Below, piece by piece: positions 747 through 18,525 of a DNA stretch of 20,000 bases; position 1 is the stretch's first letter, and the number at the start of each line of letters is the position of its first letter. This DNA comes from an uncultured virus (IMG/VR IMGVR_UViG_3300044998_000523) (taxonomy: Duplodnaviria; Heunggongvirae; Uroviricota; Caudoviricetes). The DNA lies in the IMG/VR virus record IMGVR_UViG_3300044998_000523, one strand, 5' to 3'. The position numbers were made by a program, and so were the translations under genes. The notes under the pieces were generated by a model. It ran no database searches and had not been told where the DNA came from. It saw nothing but the letters and a program-made list of their open reading frames with translations.

Positions 747-990
747 GATGCAACCCGATGAACTCAACGCGCTCAAAGCGCTGGTCGAAGAATTTCTTGG
801 CAAAGTTCAGAACATCGACAACGAGATTCAGCTGCTGAAAGACGATCGCAAAGAGCTGTTCGAGGAGTACTCGGATCGTCTAGATATGAAGACGCTCAAA
901 GCCGCTCTGAGCATCATTAAGATCCAAAAGGGAGTCGCGCATGCGGACACTTTTGAAATGTTTATGGAAGTTCTAGATAAGCAGATATGA
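715..990 (+). CDS. small dsDNA-binding protein, T4 DsbA / GapR (DUF2312)-like
   Basis: 91 aa helical protein with pattern LKALVEEF..IDNEIQLLKDDRKELFEEY...DMKTLKAAL. Preceded by the SD-like AAGAGG. Family assigned from recall of the motif. Confidence 0.6.
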   Translation: MENAKNYNTAEMQPDELNALKALVEEFLGKVQNIDNEIQLLKDDRKELFEEYSDRLDMKTLKAALSIIKIQKGVAHADTFEMFMEVLDKQI

Positions 991-1565
991 ATTTCGTATA
1001 CGTCATTTCAAACAACCAAACGAAGAAAAGATATGTTGGATTGTCGAACAACGTAGCTAAGCGCTGGAAAGAACACGTCCGTCATGCCTTTGATAACTGC
1101 ACGACGAAATATCTCTTGCATCAAGCGTTGGTGAAATACGGTGTTGATTCGTTTTCTCTAAGCGTTTTAGAAGAATATGAATTGAGAGATGACGCTTTAC
1201 GAGCTGAAGCGCGTCTTATTAAAGAGCTTGATACGTTTGGGCCTAACGGATACAATATGACCGGTGGGTGGGAAGGTGCGCTCATTGTTAGCGAAAACAC
1301 GCGGACAGTGATTTCTGAATCCCAAAAAAGAAGATTTGCTTCCGTTAAAGAGAGAGAAAAACATAGCAATGCTTGCAAAGGTTCTCTTCGAAGTGAAGAA
1401 ACTAAGAAAAGAATAAGTGAATGTCAAAAGGGACGTAAACATACTACTCATTCAAAAATGAAAATGAGCCTTTCGAGAAAAGGAATTAAGTTTTCCGAAG
1501 AGCGTAAACAAAAGATGAGAGATGGCTGGGCGCGCAAGAAAGTCCTCGAAAAAGAAGGACTTTAA
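987..1565 (+). CDS. GIY-YIG homing endonuclease with NUMOD3-type repeats
   Basis: FVYVISN...RYVG...RWKEH...GYNMTGG followed by RSEETKKRIS and FSEERKQKM repeats. AT-rich, with ATGA overlap with the upstream gene. Confidence 0.9.
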   Translation: MNFVYVISNNQTKKRYVGLSNNVAKRWKEHVRHAFDNCTTKYLLHQALVKYGVDSFSLSVLEEYELRDDALRAEARLIKELDTFGPNGYNMTGGWEGALIVSENTRTVISESQKRRFASVKEREKHSNACKGSLRSEETKKRISECQKGRKHTTHSKMKMSLSRKGIKFSEERKQKMRDGWARKKVLEKEGL

Positions 1566-7055: not shown

Positions 7056-7843
7056 GAGTTTTGAGGAAGGGAATGGTCGGTGATGATGTCATCGCCTGGC
7101 AGAATTTTTTGAGAGGTCTTTTGCCCGATTCTTTGGTCGTCGTCACCGGAAATTTCGATGACGTTACGCACAATGAGACCGTTCGGTTTCAAAAGATGAG
7201 CGGTTTGCGGCCCGACGGCGTCGTCGGTCCCAATACGGCAGGATCAGCTCTCAAATTGGGCTATCACGCCATGACAGACGATTCTTCCGACGACACGGGT
7301 CCCAATTGGCCAGCTAAACCAGCGGGAGTCTCATCCCTCTCCGCCGCGGATAGAGAAAAGTTGTTTGGCAAGTTTTCCTATGTGCCCGCGCCCAGTCAGT
7401 GGAATCCCGAAGGCATCAAAATCACGGACAACTGGGCTGCCAACAATATCACGACTGTCAGCGTCCCGCAGCTGATGCTTGTCAACGGCGGTCCCAAAGA
7501 CGGCAAAGTGAGCTTTCACGTCAAGGGAGCTAAACAGCTGCAGGATCTTTTTTCTGAGTGGGAATCGGCGGGTCTGATGAATCGAGTGCTGACGTGGGGC
7601 GGTTCGTGGGTCCCTCGTTACGTGAGAGGTTCTCGTACGTATCTTTCCAATCATTCGTGGGGTACGGCTTTCGATATCAACGCTCAGTGGAACGGATTGG
7701 GAGCCCGGCCGGCGACTAAGGGTCTGAAAGGCTCAGTCCGCGAATTGGTCACCATCGCTGACAAGCACGGTTTCTTTTGGGGCGGCTGGTGGGACGGACG
7801 ACCAGACGGGATGCATTTCGAGTGCTACAAAATCATTCCGTGA
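7052..7843 (+). CDS. endolysin: peptidoglycan-binding domain + M15-family metallopeptidase
   Basis: N-terminal LRKGMVGDDV...FQKMSGLRPDGVVGPNT (PG_binding_1). C-terminal SNHSWGTAFDIN and DGMHFE Zn motifs. Confidence 0.9.
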   Translation: MRVLRKGMVGDDVIAWQNFLRGLLPDSLVVVTGNFDDVTHNETVRFQKMSGLRPDGVVGPNTAGSALKLGYHAMTDDSSDDTGPNWPAKPAGVSSLSAADREKLFGKFSYVPAPSQWNPEGIKITDNWAANNITTVSVPQLMLVNGGPKDGKVSFHVKGAKQLQDLFSEWESAGLMNRVLTWGGSWVPRYVRGSRTYLSNHSWGTAFDINAQWNGLGARPATKGLKGSVRELVTIADKHGFFWGGWWDGRPDGMHFECYKIIP

Positions 7844-8430
7844 ATTCGTATGTGTACTGCATCACTAATTTAGTGAACGGTAAACGTTATGTTGGCAAGA
7901 CGAATCATCCTAATCGTCGATGGAAGGATCATTGCAATCCGGATCTAAAGTCTTCGGGAGGTATGATCATACCCTTCGCAATTATGAAATACGGCGCTCA
8001 GAATTTCAAATTTGAGATCGTTGCAGAATGTTCTTCTGAAGAAGAGGCTTTCGAACTTGAAAAGAAGTTCATCGTCGAATGGCAGACAACGGATCGGTCT
8101 AAGGGCTACAATATGAATGAAGGTGGTTGTGGAGGTATTAATCCGACTCCAGAAGTTCGAGAGAAAATTGGAGCTCGACACCGAGGTAAGAAAATTTCTG
8201 ACAAACAGAAAGAAATGATTTCGAAAGTTCATAAGGGCAAAGTGATGTCCGAAGAGTCTTGTCGAAAAATGTCTGCATCTCGTACGGGATCTGGAAACGG
8301 TCGTTACGGAATGATTGCTTCAGAAGAGACTAAAGCTAAAATGAAAAAGCCTCATCGATGTTCTCTTTGCGGACGAACGGGTCATATCAAACCAACCTGT
8401 AGAAAAACTCGTAGTATGATACTTCCCTAA
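7840..8430 (+). CDS. GIY-YIG homing endonuclease with NUMOD3-type repeats and C-terminal CCHC zinc knuckle
   Basis: GTG start overlapping the upstream TGA. YVYCITNLVNGKRYVGKT...GYNMNEGG, then KGKVMSEES and SEETKAKM repeats, then CSLCGRTGHIKPTC. Confidence 0.9.
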   Translation: MNSYVYCITNLVNGKRYVGKTNHPNRRWKDHCNPDLKSSGGMIIPFAIMKYGAQNFKFEIVAECSSEEEAFELEKKFIVEWQTTDRSKGYNMNEGGCGGINPTPEVREKIGARHRGKKISDKQKEMISKVHKGKVMSEESCRKMSASRTGSGNGRYGMIASEETKAKMKKPHRCSLCGRTGHIKPTCRKTRSMILP

Positions 8431-11953: not shown

Positions 11954-12026
11954 GCTGTCGTGATGTCAATGGCTAACATACCTCACTCGTAATGAGGTCA
12001 TCCGGGTTCGAATCCCGGCGACAGCT
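11954..12026 (+). tRNA. tRNA-Thr(CGT)
   Basis: GCTGTCG/CGACAGC acceptor, CCTCA-CTCGTAA-TGAGG anticodon arm, GGTTCGAATCC T arm. Confidence 0.92.
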
Positions 12027-12050
12027 CCGAATGATTCGATTCAATCTCAT

Positions 12051-12121
12051 TCAGGGGTCGTCTAACTGGTAGGACTCTTGGCTCTGAACCAAGCAATGGG
12101 GGTCGATTCCCTCGCCCTGAT
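12051..12121 (+). tRNA. tRNA-Gln(CTG)
   Basis: TCAGGG/CCCTGA acceptor and CTTGG-CTCTGAA-CCAAG arm. The T arm GGGGGTCGATTCCCTC is slightly aberrant. Confidence 0.8.
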
Positions 12122-12138
12122 CTAGGAAAGGTAAAGTC

Positions 12139-12396
12139 ATGATTTTCGCAAGATTGAAGGTCGGTGTCATGGATCCTAGTTCGAAAGAATTCGAGGAGAA
12201 TGATTCGTATGACCTCGAAGCCCACGAATCGGTCAATGGGTTGCTCGAGGCCAATCATTCTCACGAGGATGACGAGTGCAATCATGCCATCCTTGAGCTC
12301 GTCTTCCCGATGGGAGAAGTGACTCTTCTTTCTGTCAAGAAGATTCAAACTCGCAGCGCGCAGGGAAAGCTTAAGGTTCGCTGGCGTCTGACATAA
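12139..12396 (+). CDS. hypothetical protein
   Basis: 85 aa ORF with SD AAGG/AGGA that fills the gap between two tRNAs. Confidence 0.6.
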   Translation: MIFARLKVGVMDPSSKEFEENDSYDLEAHESVNGLLEANHSHEDDECNHAILELVFPMGEVTLLSVKKIQTRSAQGKLKVRWRLT

Positions 12397-12405
12397 TAGT
12401 TATTT

Positions 12406-12477
12406 TGGTCGTTCTTCCAACGGCTAGGAAAACCGGCTCCCGGGTAATGGGGGGTTCGAATCCCTCACGACCAACCA
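12406..12477 (+). tRNA. tRNA-like gene lacking most of the anticodon loop (undetermined)
   Basis: TGGTCGT/ACGACCA-A-CCA with normal D and T arms. The anticodon arm is CCGG-CTC-CCGG, a loop of only 3 nt. Confidence 0.7.
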
Positions 12478-12493
12478 AAGAAAAGAGATTATC

Positions 12494-12721
12494 ATGAGTC
12501 AAAAGACGACCGACCCGCCCATCGAATTGCTCGAGCAGCTTCTTTCTGCCACTCCCTTCGGAGAAAAGGTCAAGGTGCCCAATAAGCGATCCGAGCTGGT
12601 CGCTATGCGAGAGCGGCTCTTCATGATGGGTCGAGGCAACGGCCGCGATTTTGCTTATATCGATTCCCTGCTCGATTACGAGCGCCAAGGACGAATCGAA
12701 TTTCTTCCGGAGGATAGCTGA
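12494..12721 (+). CDS. hypothetical protein
   Basis: 75 aa ORF between a tRNA and the next ORF, with codon usage like its neighbours. Confidence 0.6.
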   Translation: MSQKTTDPPIELLEQLLSATPFGEKVKVPNKRSELVAMRERLFMMGRGNGRDFAYIDSLLDYERQGRIEFLPEDS

Positions 12722-12722
12722 A

Positions 12723-12878
12723 ATGGATCAAGAGACGATTAACAAGCTGGGATTGGCGACGAAGATCTTCGGAGCCGTCCTTTTTGTGGTCTGCGCAGGA
12801 GCCCTCGTCTGGTCACTCTTCAGACCCGCCGTAACGGAAGGCCCGATGCCTCCCGAGCCGGCTCCGATGCAACGATAA
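12723..12878 (+). CDS. small membrane protein
   Basis: MDQETINKLG... with SD GGAGG, one transmembrane segment (IFGAVLFVVCAGALVWSLF) and a Pro-rich tail. Confidence 0.65.
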   Translation: MDQETINKLGLATKIFGAVLFVVCAGALVWSLFRPAVTEGPMPPEPAPMQR

Positions 12879-12885
12879 TGAATTT

Positions 12886-12964
12886 CGGTCCGTGGTGTCA
12901 ACGGTATTAACATACTTGGCTCTTACCCAACGAGATGAGGGTTCGATTCCCTCCGAGCCCACCA
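12886..12964 (+). tRNA. tRNA-Lys(CTT), imperfect acceptor stem
   Basis: TTGG-CTCTTAC-CCAA arm, GAGGGTTCGATTCCCTC T arm and ACCA end. The acceptor stem has two mismatches. Confidence 0.7.
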
Positions 12965-12968
12965 CAAG

Positions 12969-13244
12969 ATGTTCAAAAGCAGCATATGCAAAATTTGCGG
13001 AAGAACGTTTCCTCATGGATATCGATGCCAATCATGCGGCCACGATACATGGATGAGAGATCCGATTCCGATCGAGATTGATCACATCGATAGAGATTCT
13101 AGAAACAATGAAAGAGAAAATCTCCGTTTGATTTGTCCTAATTGTCACGCGCAAACTGACACTTACAAGGGCCGAAACATCGGAAAGAATCCGGATACAA
13201 AGAGAGCAGAGACTCTCAAAAAGCATTATGGAAAGTATCGATAA
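12969..13244 (+). CDS. HNH endonuclease (short, possibly internally deleted)
   Basis: CQSC...IEIDHIDRDSRNNERENLRLICPNCHAQT, with an orphan N-terminal CKIC. Confidence 0.85.
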   Translation: MFKSSICKICGRTFPHGYRCQSCGHDTWMRDPIPIEIDHIDRDSRNNERENLRLICPNCHAQTDTYKGRNIGKNPDTKRAETLKKHYGKYR

Positions 13245-13522
13245 ATGAGAATTAGTCAACGAAATTGCGTTCTTGTCGAAGGCACGAATGGAGAAATGTA
13301 CATTCCTATCGATACCAACGAATCAACAGCGTTTTGCGTCAACCGAAAAGATATGCTTGATAAGGGCATTTTGAAAAGCAGACTCGCTCGCTCGAAATAA
13401 AGCCTCGAAATCGCTGCCTCTTCTTGAAAAAGAAAGGTATTCGAATCGAATCTATCAGACATGATTCTCGACGTCCGGTTAACCATCCCGATGGTCCGGT
13501 TTAGGTGAAATAACAGCAATTT

Positions 13523-13610
13523 GGACGCGTGAGAGTTAGTTGCGAATTTGGCACAGCACGCCTGCTCAAACCAGGTTCTTTTGTGGGTTCGAGTCCCACC
13601 GCGTCTACCA
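13523..13610 (+). tRNA. tRNA-Leu(CAA), atypical
   Basis: GGACGCG/CGCGTCT-A-CCA, GCCTG-CTCAAAC-CAGGT and a canonical T arm. About 10 extra nt lie between acceptor stem and D arm, and the variable region is short. Confidence 0.7.
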
Positions 13611-13619
13611 ACTCAAAAG

Positions 13620-13959
13620 ATGATCAAAAGCGAAATTTCCTTTCCTCAAGAGACTGTCGGAATCGGTCTCGAAGATCGATCATCCCAGCATCGATATCCA
13701 ACTCGTCGCTAACGAGGATGTATACGTCGAAAGCGACGCCTTCGAGCAGCTCTTAAAGCTGCGAGTCATCACTCCGATCTATCCCGAGTCCCCGCGCATC
13801 AAGTCACGTCGGGACATCATGACCTAGTATCGCAAGCGTGGCATGGAAAAGATGCCGTACGCTTACAAGGACATCGAGCCTGTCATCGATTCAGCCGAAG
13901 AGGCTCAGATTGCCAAGAAAGTGGTTCGTTTGGCTCCTCTGTGCATTGTCAAGGGCTAG
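13620..13959 (+). pseudogene. rtcB: RtcB RNA ligase remnant (large internal deletion, in-frame TAG, 5' frameshift)
   Basis: The frame from 13624 reads ...KIDHPSIDIQLVANEDVYVESDAFEQLLK|LRVITPIYPESPRIKSRRDIMT*YRKRGMEKMPYAYKDIEPVIDSAEEAQIAKKVVRLAPLCIVKG*. The PxAYKDI...V..L.P...KG* ending is the RtcB C-terminal signature. Confidence 0.85.
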
Positions 13960-13980
13960 GAGAAAAAAGTGACAGGGTGA

Positions 13981-14009
13981 GTGTAAACAGTCGACTACCA
14001 TGTTAGATT
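13981..14009 (+). promoter_or_regulatory. putative promoter
   Basis: A-tract, then GTGTAAAC-N15-TAGATT, about 20 nt upstream of tRNA-Glu. Confidence 0.6.
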
Positions 14010-14028
14010 TAGAATCCTAGTCAATCTG

Positions 14029-14103
14029 GCCCCCATCGACCACTGGCTAAGTCAGCTGGTTTTCACCCAGCAGAACCGGGATCGATACCCGGTGGGGTCA
14101 CCA
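14029..14103 (+). tRNA. tRNA-Glu(TTC)
   Basis: GCTGG-TTTTCAC-CCAGC arm, CCGGGATCGATACCCGG T arm and ACCA end. Confidence 0.88.
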
Positions 14104-14107
14104 GTTT

Positions 14108-14171
14108 GGTCCTGTCATGCTAACGGCTTAGGCGACTGCCCTCTCAAGGCAGGGATACGGGTTCGAATCCC
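14108..14171 (+). pseudogene. 3'-truncated tRNA-Glu(CTC)
   Basis: GGTCCTG 5' strand, D arm, CTGCC-CTCTCAA-GGCAG and ACGGGTTCGAATCCC, then unrelated sequence. No CAGGACC 3' strand follows. Confidence 0.75.
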
Positions 14172-14224
14172 TCCGCTATTAAGACACATGCACAAAGGAG
14201 AAGGAGTGAGACTAGAACCGCTCA

Positions 14225-14335
14225 ATGTGCAAGTTCTGCATGCTGGCTCAGCAGTTGTCGGGCCAACCGATGATGTGCAAGCCGTGCTGGCACAAGGCTT
14301 ATAAAAATCGTAAGCCGAAGAAGCGACAGAGTTGA
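14225..14335 (+). CDS. 36-aa CxxC..CxxC zinc-binding mini-protein (or remnant)
   Basis: MCKFCMLAQQLSGQPMMCKPCWHKAYKNRKPKKRQS*, ending just before a terminator. Confidence 0.45.
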   Translation: MCKFCMLAQQLSGQPMMCKPCWHKAYKNRKPKKRQS

Positions 14336-14340
14336 GTGAG

Positions 14341-14368
14341 AAGGACCCATTCGGGTCCTTTTCCTTTT
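14341..14368 (+). terminator. intrinsic terminator
   Basis: AAGGACCC-ATTC-GGGTCCTT hairpin followed by TTCCTTTT. Confidence 0.8.
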
Positions 14369-14426
14369 AATAGGAGCGGCTAGTTTTCAAGGCCTCCGAG
14401 CAAAAAAGAAAAAAGTGCTCGCGGAA

Positions 14427-14455
14427 GTGCAAACAGCCTGCAGATCTGGTATATC
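14427..14455 (+). promoter_or_regulatory. putative promoter
   Basis: A-tracts, then GTGCAAAC-N15-TATATC(T), directly after the terminator and upstream of a structured RNA. Confidence 0.5.
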
Positions 14456-14469
14456 TATAAAACACGACG

Positions 14470-14805
14470 AACTCAAGCGGTTCGGAGCAAGACAATGAAC
14501 TTCGTAGATTCACATAGCAGAATGGGGAGCCGAGATTCGGCGGACCTGTGCGTGTGGTCCGATGCTGTCCGCCCGAACGTCGCCGCCCTTATCAATCCCT
14601 TTCGGGGATGATAAGTCGCGGAGCCGGCCCGAATCCGGCAAAGAGTCACGAGTCCCCGATAGGGGACGGAAGCTTCATAAGATGTCGCTTCTTGGGTTTG
14701 TCGCCGCTCTAACGGAATACCGGATGAAGCGACTGGAGCGGATGCTTGAAGGCATCTGACGCCAACCAAGATGGAGATATGGGAATGACCGTATCTTCGA
14801 AAGCA
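14470..14805 (+). ncRNA. unclassified large structured RNA (~335 nt)
   Basis: No credible ORF. Many helices, including GTTCGG/CCGAAC, CTTATCA/TGATAAG, GTCCCC/GGGGAC, and the crossing pairs GTCGCTTC/GAAGCGAC and CCGCTCTA/TGGAGCGG. Ends are approximate. Confidence 0.6.
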
Positions 14806-14815
14806 CAATGTATTT

Positions 14816-14890
14816 GCCCGCGTAGTTCAGTGGATTTAGAACGCCTGTCTACGAAACAGGAGGTCGCAGGTTCGAGTCCTGCCGCGGGTA
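14816..14890 (+). tRNA. tRNA-Arg(ACG)
   Basis: Canonical cloverleaf with CCTGT-CTACGAA-ACAGG. Confidence 0.95.
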
Positions 14891-14929
14891 CTATTCTCCT
14901 TAATATACGTGCATACGCACGTTCAATTT

Positions 14930-15005
14930 GCCACCTAAGCTAATCTGGTGAAAGCGGCTGCCTGAAGAGCAGCAGAGCTCGGCTCGAAACCGAGAGGTGG
15001 CACCA
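14930..15005 (+). tRNA. tRNA-Phe(GAA)
   Basis: GCCACCT/AGGTGGC-A-CCA and GCTGC-CTGAAGA-GCAGC. Confidence 0.9.
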
Positions 15006-15076
15006 AACACGAAGTTTCGTCGATGAAACAAAGTGTTGTACAGGACATCCTACCTGGTTTAGGATGATCTTACTTT

Positions 15077-15153
15077 CAGCGTGTAGCTCAGCCTGGTATT
15101 AGAGCGCTACCTTGGGGTGGTAGAGGTCGCGGGTTCGAATCCCGCTTCGCTGA
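15077..15153 (+). tRNA. tRNA-Pro(GGG)
   Basis: CTACC-TTGGGGT-GGTAG with canonical D and T arms. One mismatch in the acceptor stem. Confidence 0.88.
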
Positions 15154-15155
15154 CT

Positions 15156-15463
15156 CGGTTGGTGGTCGTATCTGGTGGTCGAAACTTAACTCCCGCTCGG
15201 GGTAAGACACCGGCAACGGACACTGGTCGGATCTAACGTATCTAGGAAGCATAAAGCAGCGGCGAAGGGGATCAATGCAGTGGCCTATTCCTCTTCAAAG
15301 CATAACGCCGACACTAATCGGACCAGAGCTTGGGCGTTTGCGAGTAAAACCTCGCTCCGTCGCTAACGGTGAGATCGCTACTCACCTAGACGGATGGCTG
15401 AAGAATGCGACTTTGATAGGAAGGTAAAAGAGGTGGTTCTCTTTTCGGATCGATCATCAACCG
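15156..15463 (+). ncRNA. unclassified large structured RNA (308 nt)
   Basis: 13-bp terminal helix CGGTTGGTGGTCG/CGATCATCAACCG enclosing nested helices (CTGGTC/GACCAG, CGGCG/CGCCG, GCGAG/CTCGC, TCCGTC/GACGGA, GGTGAG/CTCACC, AAAAGAG/CTCTTTT). It fills the inter-tRNA gap almost exactly. Confidence 0.7.
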
Positions 15464-15467
15464 TAAC

Positions 15468-15542
15468 GGACGAGTAGCTCAGCAACAGAGCGACCGGATT
15501 TTAACCGGGAGGTCGGAGGTGTAAGTCCTCCCTCGTCCACCA
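15468..15542 (+). tRNA. tRNA-Lys(TTT), non-canonical elbow
   Basis: GGACGAG/CTCGTCC-A-CCA and CCGG-ATTTTAA-CCGG. The D loop lacks GG and the T loop is TGTAAGT. Confidence 0.75.
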
Positions 15543-15543
15543 T

Positions 15544-15621
15544 GGAGAAGTAGCTCAGGCTAGAAGAGCGCCAGAAATTTGATTCTGGAGGTCGGGTGTG
15601 CAAATCATCCCTTTTCCACCA
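15544..15621 (+). tRNA. tRNA-like, undetermined anticodon (8-nt loop AATTTGAT)
   Basis: GGAGAAG/CTTTTCC-A-CCA, GCTC/GAGC D stem, CCAGA/TCTGG stem and T loop TGCAAAT. Confidence 0.7.
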
Positions 15622-15699
15622 AGACAAGAGACTAGAAGCCCTCCCGGAACATTGGGCCTAGCACGGAATATTCAGGTACCGAGGGCCTGGTGTTCATTT

Positions 15700-15772
15700 G
15701 CCCGAGTAGCTCAGCAACAGAGCGTCCCCAGTTTAACGGGGAAGGTCGAAGGTGTAAGTCCTTCCTCGGGCT
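15700..15772 (+). tRNA. tRNA-like, undetermined anticodon (8-nt loop AGTTTAAC; TTT or TTA)
   Basis: GCCCGAG/CTCGGGC acceptor and TCCCC/GGGGA stem. D arm and T loop are identical to those of the 15468 tRNA. Confidence 0.7.
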
Positions 15773-15779
15773 CTAATTT

Positions 15780-15855
15780 CCCACTGTAGCTCAGACTCGA
15801 GAGCGCCTGGCAAGAAGGCCGGGAGGCGATGGCTCGTTGCCATCCGGTGGGACCA
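15780..15855 (+). tRNA. tRNA-like, undetermined anticodon (loop CAAGAAGG)
   Basis: CCCACTG/CGGTGGG-A-CCA, GCTC/GAGC, CCTGG/CCGGG and T arm GATGG-CTCGTTG-CCATC. Confidence 0.68.
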
Positions 15856-15860
15856 ATCTT

Positions 15861-15936
15861 GAGGTCCTCGTCTAACACTGAGGATAGCTCCCAGAATCGG
15901 GAGAAGATCGAGGTGTGAATCCTCGGGACCTCGCCA
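15861..15936 (+). tRNA. tRNA-like, undetermined anticodon (6-nt loop AGAATC)
   Basis: GAGGTCC/GGACCTC-G-CCA, CTCCC/GGGAG and T arm CGAGG-TGTGAAT-CCTCG. Confidence 0.68.
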
Positions 15937-15941
15937 ACTTC

Positions 15942-16013
15942 TCCCTCGTAGCTTAACAAGAGAGCCCGGCGCTTCAGCCGGAGATCCTGTCTCGAAGGCA
16001 GGCGAGGGAGCCA
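15942..16013 (+). tRNA. tRNA-like, undetermined anticodon (6-nt loop GCTTCA)
   Basis: TCCCTCG/CGAGGGA-G-CCA, GCTT/GAGC, CCGGC/GCCGG and T arm CCTGT-CTCGAAG-GCAGG. Confidence 0.68.
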
Positions 16014-16019
16014 ATTTCA

Positions 16020-16097
16020 GGGGACCTAGTTTAGTACCAGCAGAACAACAGCTAAGTTAGGCTGAAGGCCGAGGTGCAATTCCTCGGGTCCCCTCCA
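16020..16097 (+). tRNA. tRNA-like, undetermined anticodon (loop TAAGTTAG)
   Basis: GGGGACC/GGTCCCC-T-CCA, CAGC/GCTG and T arm CGAGG-TGCAATT-CCTCG. Confidence 0.68.
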
Positions 16098-16100
16098 TTT

Positions 16101-16177
16101 GCTCGAGTACGCCAAAAGTAGAGCGGGCCCCATAAAGGCGGGGCTGGTTGGTGGTTCGTATCCACCCTCGAGTACCA
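16101..16177 (+). tRNA. tRNA-like, undetermined anticodon (8-nt loop ATAAAGGC)
   Basis: GCTCGAG/CTCGAGT-A-CCA, GCCCC/GGGGC and T arm GGTGG-TTCGTAT-CCACC. Confidence 0.68.
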
Positions 16178-16185
16178 AATTCATC

Positions 16186-16614
16186 ATGGAACTTGTAAAG
16201 TGTCCTCATTGTGATAAGATGTGTCATCCCAAATTTGGGATCAAAACACACATTTGGAGAGTCCACGGTGGAGGTCAGATTCATGATCCTAATCGAGGAT
16301 TCATTGACGGTTCTCGTTCTCAATGGAACAGAGATAAATGGAGCAAATCTCCAGATGAAATTCTTGTAAAGAGTGATAAGAAACACGGATCGCTAGGTCT
16401 TTGGCTTAAAAGAAGTGGGCGGGAGCACAAATGTGAAGTCTGCGAACTCGGTCCGTTTTGGAACGGTCAGAAACTAAATCTCCAAGTTGACCATATCGAC
16501 GGTGACAACACAAATCACGTTCCAACGAATCTTCGATTTATCTGTCCGAATTGTCACACTCAAACTCCAACTTATGCTTGGAGAAATAGAAAACGTAAAA
16601 AGTCTGGGCTATGA
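16186..16614 (+). CDS. HNH homing endonuclease with N-terminal C2H2 zinc finger
   Basis: CPHC...HIWRVH, then CEVC...LQVDHIDGDNTNHVPTNLRFICPNCHTQT. The start is taken at ATG 16186, after the tRNA. Confidence 0.88.
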   Translation: MELVKCPHCDKMCHPKFGIKTHIWRVHGGGQIHDPNRGFIDGSRSQWNRDKWSKSPDEILVKSDKKHGSLGLWLKRSGREHKCEVCELGPFWNGQKLNLQVDHIDGDNTNHVPTNLRFICPNCHTQTPTYAWRNRKRKKSGL

Positions 16615-16677
16615 CGTGCTGGTTGCACTGAGAAACCTGATAAGTTTCTTGGACAGATTCGATTTCTGTATAGCCCA
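16606..16677 (+). tRNA. tRNA-Ile(GAT)
   Basis: GGGCTAT/ATAGCCC and GAAAC-CTGATAA-GTTTC, with an unusual D arm. The 5' end overlaps the HNH stop codon. Confidence 0.75.
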
Positions 16678-16681
16678 CTAT

Positions 16682-16929
16682 CCTCTCGTGGCGGAAAGGA
16701 AGACGCGCCGTTAAAAAGCGATGGTCAAATCCACGGTCTCCTTGAGTGGAGGCGTCCAAGCTGACCCTGACACAAGCACGATGTGGTGTTGCCTAGGCGT
16801 GACATCAGGGAAGGCTACAGCAGGTTTGCGGAGGCACCGAATGGCAGCGAGTAGCGGTCGCTAGGGAAGCACGCTTGTCCTAAAAAGCTGTGGACGCGGT
16901 TGAGGGTTCGAATCCCTCCGAGAGGACCA
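16682..16929 (+). ncRNA. 248-nt tRNA-shaped RNA with ~175-nt structured insertion
   Basis: CCTCTCG/CGAGAGG-A-CCA acceptor, Leu-type D arm GCG-GAAAGGAAGA-CGC and canonical T arm GAGGGTTCGAATCCCTC, with a multi-helix insert between them. Confidence 0.75.
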
Positions 16930-16931
16930 AC

Positions 16932-17020
16932 TTGGCGTGCGTTAGTAGCCCGCTCGATCCGTCGTTATGCGGCGGGTGCCTGATCAGCCGAGTAGTCGGG
17001 TGCAAATCCCGAGCGCCAAA
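16932..17020 (+). ncRNA. tRNA-like RNA with branched anticodon domain
   Basis: TTGGCGT/GCGCCAA stem stacked on T arm TCGGG-TGCAAAT-CCCGA. A GCTCG/CGAGT stem encloses the hairpin ATCCGTCG-TTATG-CGGCGGGT. Confidence 0.55.
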
Positions 17021-17026
17021 ACATTT

Positions 17027-17119
17027 TCTCCCCTGCCGGAATTGGCATACGGTGCCCTCGAGGTAGGACGCCTAGGCAACGAAAGCGCGTTACGGGTTCG
17101 AGTCTCGTGGGGAGAACCA
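17027..17119 (+). tRNA. tRNA-Leu(GAG)-like, aberrant anticodon arm
   Basis: TCTCCCC/GGGGAGA-A-CCA, Leu-type D arm and long variable region. The anticodon arm GCCCT-CGAGGT-AGGAC has a 6-nt loop. Confidence 0.6.
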
Positions 17120-17129
17120 ATTCATATTT

Positions 17130-17202
17130 GCCGGGTTATTTCAGCGGCTAGAATGTCTCTTTTACAAGGAGAAGGTCGGGGGTTCGAGTCCCTCACCCGG
17201 TA
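17130..17202 (+). tRNA. tRNA-Val(TAC)
   Basis: GCCGGGT/ACCCGGT, TCTCT-TTTACAA-GGAGA and a canonical T arm. Confidence 0.92.
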
Positions 17203-17212
17203 CTAGCAATTT

Positions 17213-17287
17213 GGGAGAGTAGCTTAAGAAACAGAGCACCGGCCGTAGGGGCCGGGCGTGGCGGTGTAAAGCCGTCCTCTTCCACCA
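17213..17287 (+). tRNA. tRNA-like, undetermined (loop CGTAGGG, no U33)
   Basis: GGGAGAG/CTCTTCC-A-CCA, CCGGC/GCCGG and T loop TGTAAAG. The D loop lacks GG. Confidence 0.65.
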
Positions 17288-17292
17288 AATTT

Positions 17293-17367
17293 GCTCCATG
17301 ATGCGATTGGTATCGCAGAACCGCTGTCTACGGTTTGAAACGGGTTCGATTCCCGTATGGGGCGCCA
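17293..17367 (+). tRNA. tRNA-Asp(GTC)
   Basis: GCTCCAT/ATGGGGC-G-CCA and AACCG-CTGTCTA-CGGTT. Confidence 0.9.
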
Positions 17368-17371
17368 AATT

Positions 17372-17485
17372 CGTCGTGCCAGGGATAGCGAGCCCAGGAT
17401 CGGACCAACGTCTCGTCGCGTCCGAGGGAGTCAACCGGTCAACACGCACGTCTATTCGCGACATGCGATCAGGACTCACACGACG
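17372..17485 (+). ncRNA. unclassified structured RNA (~114 nt)
   Basis: Closed by CGTCGTG/CACGACG, with internal GGG/CCC, GACC/GGTC, CTCG/CGAG and GCA.GTC/GAC.TGC helices. Confidence 0.45.
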
Positions 17486-17494
17486 CACAATTTC

Positions 17495-17607
17495 TGTTCT
17501 ATCTTTGCTCAGGCGAAAGCCCTTGGACCGCCTCTATACACATAAGCGGGCAGCGGACGTTCGTGGGACTTTGAATCCCAAAATGAAGGAAACGGCGAAG
17601 ATAAACA
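17495..17607 (+). ncRNA. unclassified structured RNA (~113 nt) carrying an anticodon-like hairpin
   Basis: Closed by TGTT.TATCTTTGC/GCGAAGATA.AACA. Contains a GGC-GAAA-GCC GNRA hairpin and TGGGA-CTTTGAA-TCCCA. Confidence 0.45.
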
Positions 17608-17628
17608 TTAATCCCGCAAGGGATACAT

Positions 17629-17701
17629 TCACCGATAGCTCAGTGGTAGCAGCGTTCGCCTGTTAAGCGATTGGTCGTAGGTTCAAATCCTGCCCGGTGA
17701 G
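17629..17701 (+). tRNA. tRNA-Asn(GTT)
   Basis: TCACCG/CGGTGA-G, TCGC-CTGTTAA-GCGA and T arm GTAGGTTCAAATCCTGC. Confidence 0.88.
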
Positions 17702-17708
17702 CAAATTT

Positions 17709-18239
17709 ATGAGTACGTGTCGTTATTGTAGACTTGAATTTGAGCCCAGAAAGTTGGGTGGTCATACGATTCGTTGCGCTTCAAATCCAAAGCGTCAAGA
17801 ATTGATTGATAAGATTGCTCAAAATCAGGTTGGAAAGTCACTGTCTCAAAAGCATCGAGACGCTCTGTCAGAGACTATTCTGAAACGAATCCAAGCTGGT
17901 ACGTGGCACAATTCATTTGCTCGTTGTCGTCGTCATTTCTATAAGGAACAGTCCTTCGACGGTTCTTGGGAAGTGTTTCTGGCGAAATGGTTCGATGAAC
18001 ACAGCATCGATTGGGTTCGAAACCAAGAAAAGTTTCCTTACGTCCTTGACAAGCAGAGAAGCTACGTTCCCGATTTCTACCTTCCTGATATCGATTGTTA
18101 CGTCGAAGTCAAAGGCTGGAAGACGCCAAAGGACGAAGCCAAATGGAGTCAATTTCCTCGCAGATTAGTCGTGCTTTCGGGCTCTGATTTGCAAGCTTTG
18201 GGATTGCCTATTACAGTCAGAAAAGACTGGAAAATATAA
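17709..18239 (+). CDS. PD-(D/E)XK endonuclease (TnsA-N-like) with N-terminal zinc finger and NUMOD3-like segment
   Basis: CRYC...HTIRC and LSQKHRDALSE, then GSWEVFLAKWFD...YVPDFYLPDIDCYVEVKGW. Confidence 0.82.
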   Translation: MSTCRYCRLEFEPRKLGGHTIRCASNPKRQELIDKIAQNQVGKSLSQKHRDALSETILKRIQAGTWHNSFARCRRHFYKEQSFDGSWEVFLAKWFDEHSIDWVRNQEKFPYVLDKQRSYVPDFYLPDIDCYVEVKGWKTPKDEAKWSQFPRRLVVLSGSDLQALGLPITVRKDWKI

Positions 18240-18355
18240 GTTTTGCCGACACACGCTCCCATACCTCACTCACGAGGTATGGTCAAGTCCCTGTGCTGGC
18301 CAATATGCCCGGATGTGACGTCATAATCGGTGTGCAACCGAGTTCGGGCTCCAAT

Positions 18356-18432
18356 GTGAGCGAAGTGTTTTCGGCATTGCACGGACGGTTGTGGCCCGTC
18401 AAGAGTGGGTTCGACTCCCACCGCGCACACCA
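18356..18432 (+). tRNA. tRNA-His(GTG)
   Basis: GACGG-TTGTGGC-CCGTC, canonical T arm and ACCA end. Confidence 0.85.
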
Positions 18433-18449
18433 TCTCGTAGATGAGATAT

Positions 18450-18525
18450 TGTAGGGTAGATCAATTGGTAGAGCGTCTAGCTGTTAACTAGAAAGATGCA
18501 GGTTCGACTCCTGCCCCTACAGCCA
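18450..18525 (+). tRNA. tRNA-Asn(GTT), second copy
   Basis: TGTAGGG/CCCTACA-G-CCA and TCTAG-CTGTTAA-CTAGA. Confidence 0.9.

What the first reader, a model, noticed from the sequence alone, without database searches (positions are those of the whole stretch)
15156..15463. 308-nt ornate ncRNA punctuated by two tRNAs
Seen: it starts 2 nt after tRNA-Pro and ends 4 nt before tRNA-Lys. It is closed by a 13-bp helix containing G-U pairs and has at least seven nested helices plus a GCAA tetraloop, with no ORF. The segment CTAGACGGATGGCTG (15386-15400) recalls an RNase P junction, but the GAGGAAAGTCC and ACAGAA.CCGGC cores are absent. Known: large ncRNAs such as GOLLD and ROOL sit in phage tRNA clusters. 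Inference: a new or highly diverged large ncRNA released by processing of the flanking tRNAs.
Basis: partly seen in the sequence, partly recalled or inferred. Interest (0 to 1): 0.78.

Follow-up and report, generated by a model that had tools for sequence, protein, structure and literature searches.

The report
New folded RNA beside phage tRNAs
A 310-base stretch between two tRNA genes of an uncultured large phage encodes a conserved, intricately folded RNA of a family that is in no catalogue; its job is unknown, and it adds a smaller member to the puzzling 'ornate' RNAs that phages keep next to their tRNA genes.

Summary
Window 15155-15467 (+) encodes a ~310-nt RNA closed by an 18-bp helix. 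It lies flush between tRNA-Pro(GGG) and tRNA-Lys(UUU).

- **Family:** twelve distinct homologues, all in uncultured phage or metagenome contigs.
- **Fold:** 77 of 97 predicted pairs show compensatory changes. A loop-loop pseudoknot is kept in 12 of 12 by five different complementary words.
- **Known families:** no Rfam 15 family matches. It is not RNase P RNA, tmRNA, Y RNA, GOLLD or ROOL. Two sister phages carry a canonical type A RNase P RNA elsewhere in the same tRNA array.
- **Coding:** the 50-codon ORF inside is not conserved.
- **Context:** eleven of 12 copies lie among tRNA genes on the tRNA strand, and 7 of 11 start right after a tRNA. One stands alone behind a promoter-like site.
- **Expression:** contigs of three RNA libraries cover it.

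Best reading: a new family of stable, trans-acting ornate phage RNA, cut out of the tRNA precursor by tRNA-processing enzymes. A palindromic hairpin loop in 10 of 12 copies (not the window's) suggests self-association. The function is unknown.

The scan has noted other uncatalogued folded RNAs in phage tRNA clusters before. None shares sequence words with this one.

The parts
15077..15154 (+). tRNA-Pro(GGG), directly upstream; no CCA is encoded in this copy
   Evidence: ARAGORN; Rfam tRNA 56.4 bits, 15077-15153; junction read
15155..15467 (+). the structured RNA as modelled (313 nt with the unpaired first U and the 4-nt tail)
   Evidence: Covariance models R1 and R2: 388.8 and 328.4 bits. 12 distinct homologues. 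Pair counts.
15156..15174 (+). closing helix, 5' strand (pairs with 15446-15463; 18 bp, one bulge at 15169)
   Evidence: 18 of 18 pairs change on both sides somewhere in the family; 93.2% of cells pair. Coordinates checked.
15189..15203 (+). hairpin whose loop (GCUC, 15195-15198) forms the pseudoknot
   Evidence: Stem 98.3% paired; loop-partner complementarity in 12 of 12
15210..15230 (+).
   Evidence: 100% of cells pair in 8 sequences. The second pair occurs as C-G, U-G, U-A and G-C.
15231..15257 (+). 5' strand of the long irregular central stem, with the conserved internal-loop word GGAAGCAUAAAG (15245-15256)
   Evidence: Helices 5-8 (helix 7: 100% paired, 6 of 10 pairs doubly changed). The conserved word was used as a search pattern for 5 members, so its invariance there is by selection.
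15259..15301 (+). hairpin A (branch of the inner junction)
   Evidence: Helices 9-11; 8 of 8 pairs of helix 10 doubly changed; the tip (helix 11) is poorly supported (60.6%)
15304..15338 (+). hairpin B; its interior holds the pseudoknot partner GAGC (15326-15329)
   Evidence: Helix 12 (7 of 7 pairs doubly changed); partner lies 1-3 nt before the 3' strand in 12 of 12
15340..15355 (+). hairpin C with an A-rich loop (GUAAAAC)
   Evidence: Helix 14: 100% paired, 4 of 5 pairs doubly changed
15356..15394 (+). hairpin D. Its 7-nt loop (15374-15380, AUCGCUA) is a 6-nt palindrome in most relatives but not here.
   Evidence: Helices 15-16; loop palindromes
15397..15425 (+). 3' strand of the central stem, with the conserved word GAAGAAUGCGACU (15400-15412)
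   Evidence: same selection caveat as for the 5' word
15426..15445 (+). hairpin E, directly before the 3' strand of the closing helix
   Evidence: Helix 17: 90.6% paired, 6 of 8 pairs doubly changed
15446..15463 (+). closing helix, 3' strand
15464..15467 (+). 4-nt unpaired tail (UAAC) up to the next tRNA
   Evidence: RNA contigs of runs X16 and X19 end at 15464 and 15462.
15468..15542 (+). tRNA-Lys(UUU), directly downstream
   Evidence: ARAGORN; Rfam tRNA 55 bits

Best explanation
The stretch is a gene for a ~310-nt non-coding RNA of a family that is not in Rfam 15. So far the family is found only in large uncultured phages.

**Shown**
- The RNA has a conserved fold on the tRNA strand:
  - an 18-bp closing helix;
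  - two 5' hairpins;
  - a long irregular central stem with two conserved purine-rich internal loops;
  - an inner junction with four hairpins;
  - a last hairpin next to the 3' strand of the closing helix;
  - a 4-6-bp pseudoknot that ties the loop of the first hairpin to the interior of hairpin B.
- It lies among tRNA genes on their strand in 11 of 12 members.
- It is present in contigs of RNA libraries.

**Inferred: how it is made**
- It is transcribed as part of the polycistronic tRNA precursor.
- It is cut free by the enzymes that mature tRNAs.
- RNase P cutting at the 5' end of the next tRNA would set its 3' end, leaving a 4-7-nt tail.
- A cut at the foot of its own closing helix would set its 5' end. 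That site is preceded by an invariant U and, in three members, directly by the encoded CCA of the upstream tRNA. The cut would most simply also be made by RNase P, acting on a long helix with a short 3' tail as it does on the 4.5S RNA precursor (recalled knowledge). The same cut would make the 3' end of the upstream tRNA.
- The long closing helix then shields both ends.

**Inferred: what it does**
- The mature RNA acts in trans as an abundant, compact scaffold. This is the same way of life as the ROOL and GOLLD RNAs of phage tRNA islands.
- In most members it probably self-associates through a palindromic hairpin loop.
- Its molecular target is not known. I lean towards the tRNA and translation machinery, from context only.
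For: **Homologues**
- Covariance models built from the window find full-length copies in 12 distinct sequences, 52-91% identical among the first seven.
- L025 and L034 duplicate L022 and L031. L030 was an 11.7-bit stray hit. These three were dropped before counting. L074 and L090 are identical and count once.

**Covariation**
- Against the 91%-identical copy, 18 of 27 substitutions fall in predicted pairs and all keep pairing. Six pairs changed on both sides and none broke.
- With 12 sequences, 91.5% of 1125 cells pair and 77 of 97 pairs change on both sides. 0 of 500 shuffles reach this. Slid controls give 36-44% paired and 20-35 pairs.
- G-U pairs outnumber A-C mismatches 93 to 16 in 759 cells, so the + strand is the functional one.

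**Pseudoknot**
- A complementary word sits 1-3 nt before the 3' strand of hairpin B in 12 of 12.
- Five versions occur: GCUC/GAGC (8 members), ACCU/AGGU, CCGUUC/GAACGG, UCUAC/GUAGA, CCUUC/GAAGG.

**Not a known family**
- Rfam 15 gives no hit in the element at gathering scores or at E<=10.
- ARAGORN finds no tmRNA.

**Not coding**.

**Context**
- The upstream tRNA is flush in 7 of 11 members, and the base after it is U in all 7. CCA is followed directly by UCG in L022, L031 and L033.
- A downstream tRNA lies within 10 nt in 7 of 12.
- The element is on the same strand as the tRNAs in 11 of 11.
- The stand-alone copy in a complete 112.6-kb phage has a promoter-like site (TTTAAA, 17 nt, TATAAT with TG) ending 13 nt before it. 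This speaks for a gene in its own right.

**RNA libraries**
- Three RNA libraries from three studies hold contigs on the element: X16 at 15133-15464 with 0 differences, X19 at 15170-15462, and X15 at 15137-15287 and 15321-15576.
- The X16 and X19 contigs stop within 5 nt of the predicted 3' end, while a probable DNA run continues. The tool rates this a weak hint.

**Self-association**
- The loop of hairpin D holds a perfect 6-nt palindrome in 8 of 12 (UAGCUA in 7, UAAUUA in 1) and a 4-nt one in 2 of 12 (GGCC).
- The changes keep self-complementarity.
- Chance of a 6-nt palindrome in such a loop is 3-5%. No other hairpin loop of the RNA shows this.

**Precedent**
- ROOL and GOLLD are phage and prophage RNAs of unknown function, often near tRNA islands. 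They assemble through kissing loops (passages of 10.1101/2024.12.08.627333).
Against: - **Ends not mapped.** All runs were contigs, which cannot show ends, strand or level.
- **Unprocessed form or DNA carry-over.** One RNA-library contig (X15, 15321-15576) bridges the 3' border into the next two tRNAs, so unprocessed RNA or contaminating DNA is present.
- **tRNA punctuation is not universal.** Four of 11 members have no tRNA flush upstream. Five of 12 have none close downstream. One has none within 8 kb.
- **The window's own copy lacks the palindrome.** Together with its close relative it reads UCGCUA. Any self-association through that loop would be weak exactly in the copy under study.
- **Another pairing for that loop.** An intramolecular pairing of the loop (GCUA or GCCA) with the conserved UGGY at 15176-15179 fits 11 of 12 members and cannot be excluded.
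- **Alignment bias.** The alignments were fitted to the model's structure, which favours it.
- **Selection bias.** Five members were found with a pattern made of the two conserved internal-loop words, so the invariance of those words is partly by selection.
- **No direct evidence for function.** Nothing here bears on a target or an activity.
Confidence: 0.6

Rival explanations
1. It is a ribozyme: a catalytic RNA that acts on the tRNA precursor or on tRNAs. Examples would be cutting at its own 5' border to release the tRNA 3' end, or some other tRNA-directed reaction. Two sister phages carry it next to their own RNase P RNA.
For: - It is large and pseudoknotted, with invariant unpaired purine-rich internal loops.
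- An invariant U follows the upstream tRNA in 7 of 7 flush copies, and in three copies it sits directly after an encoded CCA.
- Two sister phages carry a full RNase P RNA in the same array, so these phages do import RNA catalysts for tRNA work.
- No conserved protein partner was seen: no Ro60 and no rnpA in 0 of 5 records.
Against: - No resemblance to any ribozyme family of Rfam.
- Self-cleaving ribozymes known to cut at their own 5' end leave a cyclic phosphate (recalled). That end would be useless for a tRNA 3' terminus.
- Four of 11 copies have no tRNA flush upstream, and one has no tRNA within 8 kb.
- No activity was tested.
Confidence: 0.1
2. It is a cis-acting part of the tRNA precursor, such as a folding insulator, a processing platform or a decay barrier. 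On this reading it helps neighbouring tRNAs mature and has no role once released.
For: It is flush with tRNAs on one or both sides in most copies and lies on the tRNA strand. The RNase P RNA of the sister phages is embedded in the same flush way, which shows that the arrays are processed as one unit.
Against: - A 310-nt fold with a conserved pseudoknot, conserved loops and conserved internal loops is far more than a spacer needs.
- Only one copy is present per array of 26-35 tRNAs found in the 20-kb stretches read.
- One member stands alone behind its own promoter-like site, with no tRNA within 8 kb.
- The identity of the neighbouring tRNAs changes between members: Pro, Val, Lys, Met, Tyr.
Confidence: 0.12
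3. It is a highly diverged copy of a known housekeeping RNA: RNase P RNA, tmRNA, SRP RNA, 6S or Y RNA.
For: - Its size and its closing helix are in the range of such RNAs.
- Sister phages do carry a host-type RNase P RNA.
Against: - No Rfam hit at E<=10 for any of these families in five copies.
- The two helices that would stand for P4 are nested, not a long-range pseudoknot.
- The element coexists with a canonical RNase P RNA in G007 and G008 and has no similarity to it above shuffles.
- ARAGORN finds no tmRNA. The last hairpin has no T-loop, and the third pair of the closing helix is never G-U.
- No Ro60 gene in 0 of 5 records, 2 of them near complete.
Confidence: 0.03
4. It is not an RNA gene: either a decayed protein gene or tRNA remnants, or a chance fold.
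For: A 50-aa ORF lies inside. The region is rich in homing endonuclease genes that come and go.
Against: - The ORF is broken in all 7 other copies tested.
- Substitutions are compensatory in helices.
- No tRNA-like hit inside the element at E<=10.
- 0 of 500 shuffles reach the observed covariation.
Confidence: 0.01

Closest known systems
ROOL (RF03087) and GOLLD (RF01998) RNAs
   Same: They are large, ornate, pseudoknotted non-coding RNAs of phages and prophages, of unknown function and often next to tRNA islands. They self-assemble through kissing loops and A-minor contacts (passages of 10.1101/2024.12.08.627333). This RNA shares the habitat, the elaborate fold and, in 10 of 12 members, a palindromic loop that could make such a contact.
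   Different: There is no sequence or structure match to either Rfam model at E<=10. It is about 310 nt against roughly 580 and 800 nt. It is closed by one long terminal helix and set flush between tRNAs. Assembly is only inferred, and the window's own copy lacks the palindrome.
Phage T4 RNA C and RNA D (small stable RNAs of the T4 tRNA region)
   Same: They are non-coding RNAs transcribed from a phage tRNA gene cluster, with biological roles still unknown (one passage of PMC3014915). That they are released by tRNA-type processing is recalled.
   Different: They are much smaller (about 130-140 nt, recalled). Homology was not tested because no T4 sequence was compared. blastn of this RNA against 50,697 phage records, T4-like phages included, found nothing.
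Bacterial type A RNase P RNA (RF00010)
   Same: It is a ~350-nt structured RNA closed by a terminal helix. In sister phages G007 and G008 it is embedded flush between tRNAs in the very same arrays, 2.6-2.8 kb downstream of this element.
   Different: It is a different molecule. There is no model match and no similarity above shuffles. The helix topology is nested where RNase P has its P4 pseudoknot. The two RNAs coexist in G007 and G008, while the element also occurs without RNase P RNA in the other records searched.
RNAs released from a precursor by tRNA-processing enzymes (4.5S RNA precursor and tmRNA cut by RNase P; tRNA-linked viral and nuclear RNAs cut by RNase P or Z)
   Same: The ends would be defined by neighbouring tRNAs or by a tRNA-like helix. 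RNase P is known to separate polycistronic tRNA transcripts in E. coli (PMC7049720: title and start of abstract in a search listing only). The other examples are recalled.
   Different: Processing is not shown here, and four of 11 members lack the flush upstream tRNA.

Membership tests
RNase P RNA (Rfam RF00010, RF00011 and relatives) | Match to a family covariance model | tested here: not met
   No RNase P family hit at E<=10 in the window copy or in four homologues. The same model scores 276.6 and 267 bits on real RNase P RNAs of sister phages.
RNase P RNA (Rfam RF00010, RF00011 and relatives) | P4 formed as a long-range pseudoknot flanked by the conserved core words | tested here: not met
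   The candidate strands (15249-15252 with 15405-15408) form part of one nested irregular stem supported by covariation. Local similarity to phage RNase P RNAs is at chance level.
RNase P RNA (Rfam RF00010, RF00011 and relatives) | Cleaves pre-tRNA 5' leaders | not testable with these tools
   Needs a cleavage assay
tmRNA | tRNA-like domain (T arm, acceptor stem with G3-U70, CCA end) and a tag reading frame | tested here: not met
   ARAGORN finds no tmRNA in the window and Rfam gives no hit in the element. The third pair of the closing helix is A-U, G-C, C-G or U-A, never G-U. The loops of the last hairpin (UGGU, UGAC, UGAU and others) are not T loops.
GOLLD (RF01998) / ROOL (RF03087) | Match to the family covariance model | tested here: not met
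   No hit at E<=10
GOLLD (RF01998) / ROOL (RF03087) | Phage or prophage RNA near tRNA islands | tested here: met
   11 of 12 members lie among tRNA genes of phage contigs. Terminase is present in the two near-complete carriers tested.
GOLLD (RF01998) / ROOL (RF03087) | RNA-only multimer held by kissing loops | tested here: inconclusive
   Palindromic loop in 10 of 12 members with three different palindromes, absent in the window copy. No physical test was possible.
Y RNA / YrlA (RF02553) | Model match and a Ro60 (TROVE) gene in the same genome | tested here: not met
   The only YrlA hits are weak (18-25 bits against a 69-bit gathering score) and lie on neighbouring tRNAs, not on the element. 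TROVE was found in 0 of 5 records, 2 of them at least 91% complete.
Group I intron | Model match; interrupts a gene (in bacteria often a tRNA anticodon loop) | tested here: not met
   No Rfam hit. Both flanking tRNAs are complete on their own.
T4 RNA C / RNA D | Sequence or structure homology | not tested
   No T4 sequence was compared directly. blastn against the phage collection found nothing.

The most novel reading that the evidence does not exclude
The RNA is a new class of large catalytic or tRNA-binding RNA. Big phages would carry it in their tRNA arrays, in two lineages side by side with a phage-borne RNase P RNA, to process, protect or repair tRNAs during infection.
Probability: 0.08. 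Interest if true: 0.95.

Novelty: new variant of a known kind. Interest (0 to 1): 0.72.

Why it matters
New large RNAs with a fold this well supported are rare. Those known are ribozymes, cores of ribonucleoproteins or, as found recently for ROOL and GOLLD, self-assembling cages.

- **A tractable size.** At ~310 nt this RNA has a defined pseudoknot and a candidate self-pairing loop, so it is small enough for probing and cryo-EM.
- **A recurring habitat.** It sits in the same puzzling place, the phage tRNA island. A third unrelated family there makes the question of why phages keep ornate RNAs beside their tRNAs more pressing and more testable.
- **A side finding.** Two sister phages carry a full bacterial-type RNase P RNA inside their tRNA arrays, without an rnpA gene. 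My searches found no report of a phage-borne RNase P RNA.

Tried and rejected
**Identity and structure**
- **RNase P, tmRNA, SRP, 6S, Y RNA, group I intron, GOLLD, ROOL.** No Rfam hit in the element at E<=10.
- **GCAA tetraloop hairpin and RNAalifold helices 2 and 4.** Replaced by a covarying 5-bp hairpin.
Dropped in favour of the pseudoknot. In alignment A6 the pseudoknot of L064 looks unpaired only because the model placed a gap one base off.
- **Intramolecular pairing of the hairpin D loop with UGGY (15176-15179).** It fits 11 of 12 members, fails in L073, and does not explain two of the four loop changes. Not excluded.
- **tRNA with a giant intron, or a gene on the other strand.** Rejected on the G-U to A-C ratio and on the 18-bp continuous closing helix.

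**Searches for more copies**
- **Cultured phages.** blastn of two family members against 50,697 phage records found no match.
- **Bacterial and archaeal genomes.** One pattern scan returned 15 loci, and 0 are real by the model. This is one 18-base pattern only, so prophage copies may have been missed.
- **Metagenome pattern scan.** 8 loci, 3 real (L025, L028, L031), 5 not.
- **Relaxed viral pattern scan.** 35 loci. 29 of them were not yet known, and 5 of these are real and 24 are not.
- **First exact 26-mer scan.** 0 loci.
- **Neighbour-gene searches.** The OmpA-like gene and the papain-like peptidase gene gave L004 and led to G003. L005-L007 have no tRNA within 10 kb of the peptidase gene.

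**RNA runs**
- X19 covers only the element, and the three RNA runs show no cover over 14500-14670 and 15982-16200. With contigs, a part without cover proves nothing.
- The depth figures cannot rank expression.
- X16's contig begins at 15133 behind 23 letters that I recognise from memory as a sequencing adapter. It has only 22 letters on the tRNA side, too few to count as bridging the 5' border.

**Other checks**
- **Microcystis phage MaAM05.** Its partial RNase P-like match sits between fabI, engB and mtgA, so that stretch looks bacterial and is no evidence for a phage RNase P RNA.
- **Promoter scan around L064.** Nothing found.
- **The search of earlier findings by sequence.** No look-alike.
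- **Literature.** Searches found no description of this RNA. I did not read the supplements of the motif catalogues (PMC5737381, PMC2864571, PMC8040213). A motif listed only there and not in Rfam 15 could be this RNA.
Full report
**What is there**

The window is a fragment of a large uncultured phage.
- It carries GIY-YIG and HNH homing endonuclease genes, a 5'-3' exonuclease, a NUDIX hydrolase, an endolysin-like peptidase and a UDP-glucose dehydrogenase.
- From 11954 to 18525 it carries a tRNA array on the + strand, with 15 genes by ARAGORN and further ones by Rfam.

The finding lies between tRNA-Pro(GGG) at 15077-15154 and tRNA-Lys(UUU) at 15468-15542.
- The + strand folds to -109.7 kcal/mol (z = -3.34; 0 of 100 shuffles as good).
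- The - strand folds less well (z = -2.07).

**Relatives and fold**

blastn found a 91.4%-identical copy without indels in a second phage contig, again between tRNA-Pro(GGG) and tRNA-Lys(UUU).
- Of its 27 substitutions, 18 lie in predicted pairs and all keep pairing.
- Six pairs changed on both sides and none broke.

Two covariance models built from this, pattern scans of public collections and searches of whole phage records then brought the family to 12 distinct sequences.
- Duplicates L025 and L034, the stray L030 and the identical L090 were set aside.
- The carriers are phage contigs of 21 to 369 kb, plus short metagenome contigs that hold L028 and L031. They include records rated 91%, 99%, 100% and 100% complete.
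- A large terminase gene is present in the two near-complete records tested for it.

On the 12 sequences the covariation is strong.
- 91.5% of 1125 cells pair.
- 77 of 97 pairs show a change on both sides.
- 0 of 500 shuffles reach these values.
- Sliding the partners by 1-3 columns drops pairing to 36-44%.

The alignment was fitted to the model, which favours it. However, the first two-sequence result came from plain alignment. G-U pairs outnumber A-C mismatches 93 to 16, which fixes the strand as that of the tRNAs.

**Refinements**

Its second pair occurs as C-G, U-G, U-A and G-C.

The loop of the first hairpin (GCUC, 15195-15198) pairs with GAGC (15326-15329) inside hairpin B.
- In the divergent members the two words change together to ACCU/AGGU, CCGUUC/GAACGG, UCUAC/GUAGA and CCUUC/GAAGG.
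- The partner always lies 1-3 nt before the 3' strand of hairpin B, in 12 of 12 members.

This long-range pseudoknot is the best-supported tertiary contact.

**What it is not**

- **Known RNA families.** Rfam 15 has no match in the element at gathering scores or at E<=10, in the window copy and in four relatives. ARAGORN finds no tmRNA.
- **Protein gene.** The 50-codon ORF inside is broken in every other copy.
- **RNase P RNA.**
  - Two sister phages, G007 and the complete 369-kb G008, carry a canonical full-length type A RNase P RNA (276.6 and 267 bits).
  - It lies in the same tRNA arrays, 2.6-2.8 kb downstream of their copy of this element. In G007 it is itself set flush between two tRNAs.
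  - The element and those RNase P RNAs share nothing above shuffles.
  - The element's would-be P4 strands are part of a nested stem.
  - G003 keeps only a 21-bit, 89-nt remnant of RNase P RNA. The other nine records searched (G001, G002, G009-G014) and the window itself have none.
- **Partner proteins.** No Ro60 and no rnpA gene was found in 5 records.

**Context**

Eleven of 12 members lie among tRNA genes and on their strand.
- In 7 of 11 with upstream sequence, the element begins 0-1 nt after the tRNA as called by ARAGORN. The tRNA is Pro-GGG five times and Val-CAC twice.
- In L022, L031 and L033 an encoded CCA is followed at once by the U-C-G that opens the element.
- In 7 of 12 a tRNA follows within 10 nt.
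- The identity of the neighbours varies.
- One member, in a complete 112.6-kb phage, has no tRNA within 8 kb. It is preceded by a promoter-like site that ends 13 nt upstream. That scan found 6 such sites in 1.5 kb against 1.8 expected, so this is a hint only.

The RNA is therefore a gene in its own right that usually rides in the tRNA operon.

**Expression**

Words of the stretch occur in public runs labelled hot spring, microbial mat, sludge, wastewater, soil and aquatic. All four runs laid were contigs.
- In three RNA libraries from three studies, contigs cover the element: 15133-15464 without a difference, 15170-15462, and 15137-15287 plus 15321-15576.
- Two of them stop at 15464 and 15462, next to the predicted 3' end, while a probable DNA run goes on. 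The tool rates that a weak hint.
- The third crosses the border into the next tRNAs, so precursor or DNA is also present.

Ends, strand and level cannot be read from contigs.

**How it most likely works**

Shown: a conserved compact fold, and its place in tRNA arrays.

Inferred: it is co-transcribed with the tRNAs and released by tRNA-processing enzymes.
- RNase P at the next tRNA sets the 3' end.
- A cut at the foot of the closing helix sets the 5' end. That site is preceded by an invariant U and, in three members, directly by CCA.
- This cut would also finish the upstream tRNA. It would suit RNase P, which is known to accept long helices with a short 3' tail (recalled) and to separate polycistronic tRNA transcripts (PMC7049720, listing only).

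The mature RNA, with both ends locked in an 18-bp helix, would act in trans.

The loop of hairpin D suggests self-association.
- It is a perfect 6-nt palindrome in 8 of 12 members (UAGCUA seven times, UAAUUA once) and holds GGCC in two more.
- The changes keep self-complementarity.
- This is the signature of a kissing-loop self-contact, as in ROOL, GOLLD and OLE.
- The window's own copy and its close relative have lost the palindrome.
- An intramolecular partner for the loop is not excluded.

I therefore put self-association at about even odds for the family and lower for this copy. The target is unknown.

**Comparison and novelty**

- In way of life it is closest to ROOL and GOLLD, which are ornate phage RNAs at tRNA islands.
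- It is also close to the T4 RNAs C and D, which are small RNAs of the T4 tRNA region with unknown roles (PMC3014915, one passage).
- It is a member of none of them.
- Seven literature searches found no description. Supplements of the motif catalogues were not read.
- Earlier notes of this scan list three other uncatalogued folded RNAs in phage tRNA clusters on other genomes. None shares sequence words with this one, and I did not test whether any is related.

I file it as a new family within a known kind of thing.

**Scores**

| Question | Value |
|---|---|
| Real conserved structured RNA gene | about 0.97 |
| Full explanation, including processing and a trans-acting scaffold role | 0.6 |
| Interest | 0.72 |

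Noticed in passing
L039:1501-1855 (-) = G007:C1:39985-40339; L040:1501-1858 (-) = G008:C1:11028-11385: Two sister phages carry a full-length bacterial type A RNase P RNA (276.6 and 267 bits, model positions 1-367) inside their tRNA arrays. One of them is a complete 369-kb record with terminal repeats and a terminase gene. In G007 the RNase P RNA is flush between tRNA-Leu(CAG) and tRNA-Arg(TCG). No rnpA gene was found in these records. My searches found no report of a phage-borne RNase P RNA.
   Followed up: partly
L041:1501-1589 (-) = G003:C1:262137-262225: In the 309-kb sister phage G003 only a 21-bit, 89-nt match to the RNase P model remains, in a ~200-nt gap between tRNA-Leu(CAA) and tRNA-Arg(ACG). 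It looks like a decayed or drastically shortened RNase P RNA.
   Followed up: no
window 15544-15621 and 16101-16177; L019:1892-1987: ARAGORN calls tRNAs with abnormal anticodon loops. One has a 2-base 'anticodon' tt (Rfam tRNA 45.4 bits). One has a 4-base anticodon aaag and overlaps the start of an HNH endonuclease ORF. In G003 a 96-nt tRNA has a 4-base anticodon gttc. They may be frameshift-type or degenerate tRNAs.
   Followed up: no
window 15622-15695: Contigs of three runs (two RNA libraries and one probable DNA run) join 15621 directly to 15696. A variant without these 74 bases therefore exists in nature.
   Followed up: no
window 15700-15772 and 12051-12121: Rfam finds tRNAs here (46.5 and 43 bits) that ARAGORN does not list, so the array holds more tRNA genes than the 15 called.
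   Followed up: no
window 13523-13610: Weak match to the tmRNA model (16.7 bits, E 0.0013, far below the 47-bit gathering score). It is probably a tRNA-like remnant.
   Followed up: no
window 987-1565, 7777-8430, 16099-16614, 17697-18239: Two GIY-YIG, one HNH and one further endonuclease gene are scattered through the region and the tRNA array. This fits homing endonucleases reshuffling the array. The order of tRNAs around the element differs between sister phages.
   Followed up: partly
L070 (MW495066.1 112823-117978): A public record named as a 274-kb Microcystis phage has a partial RNase P-like match between fabI, engB and mtgA. That stretch looks like bacterial DNA.
   Followed up: partly
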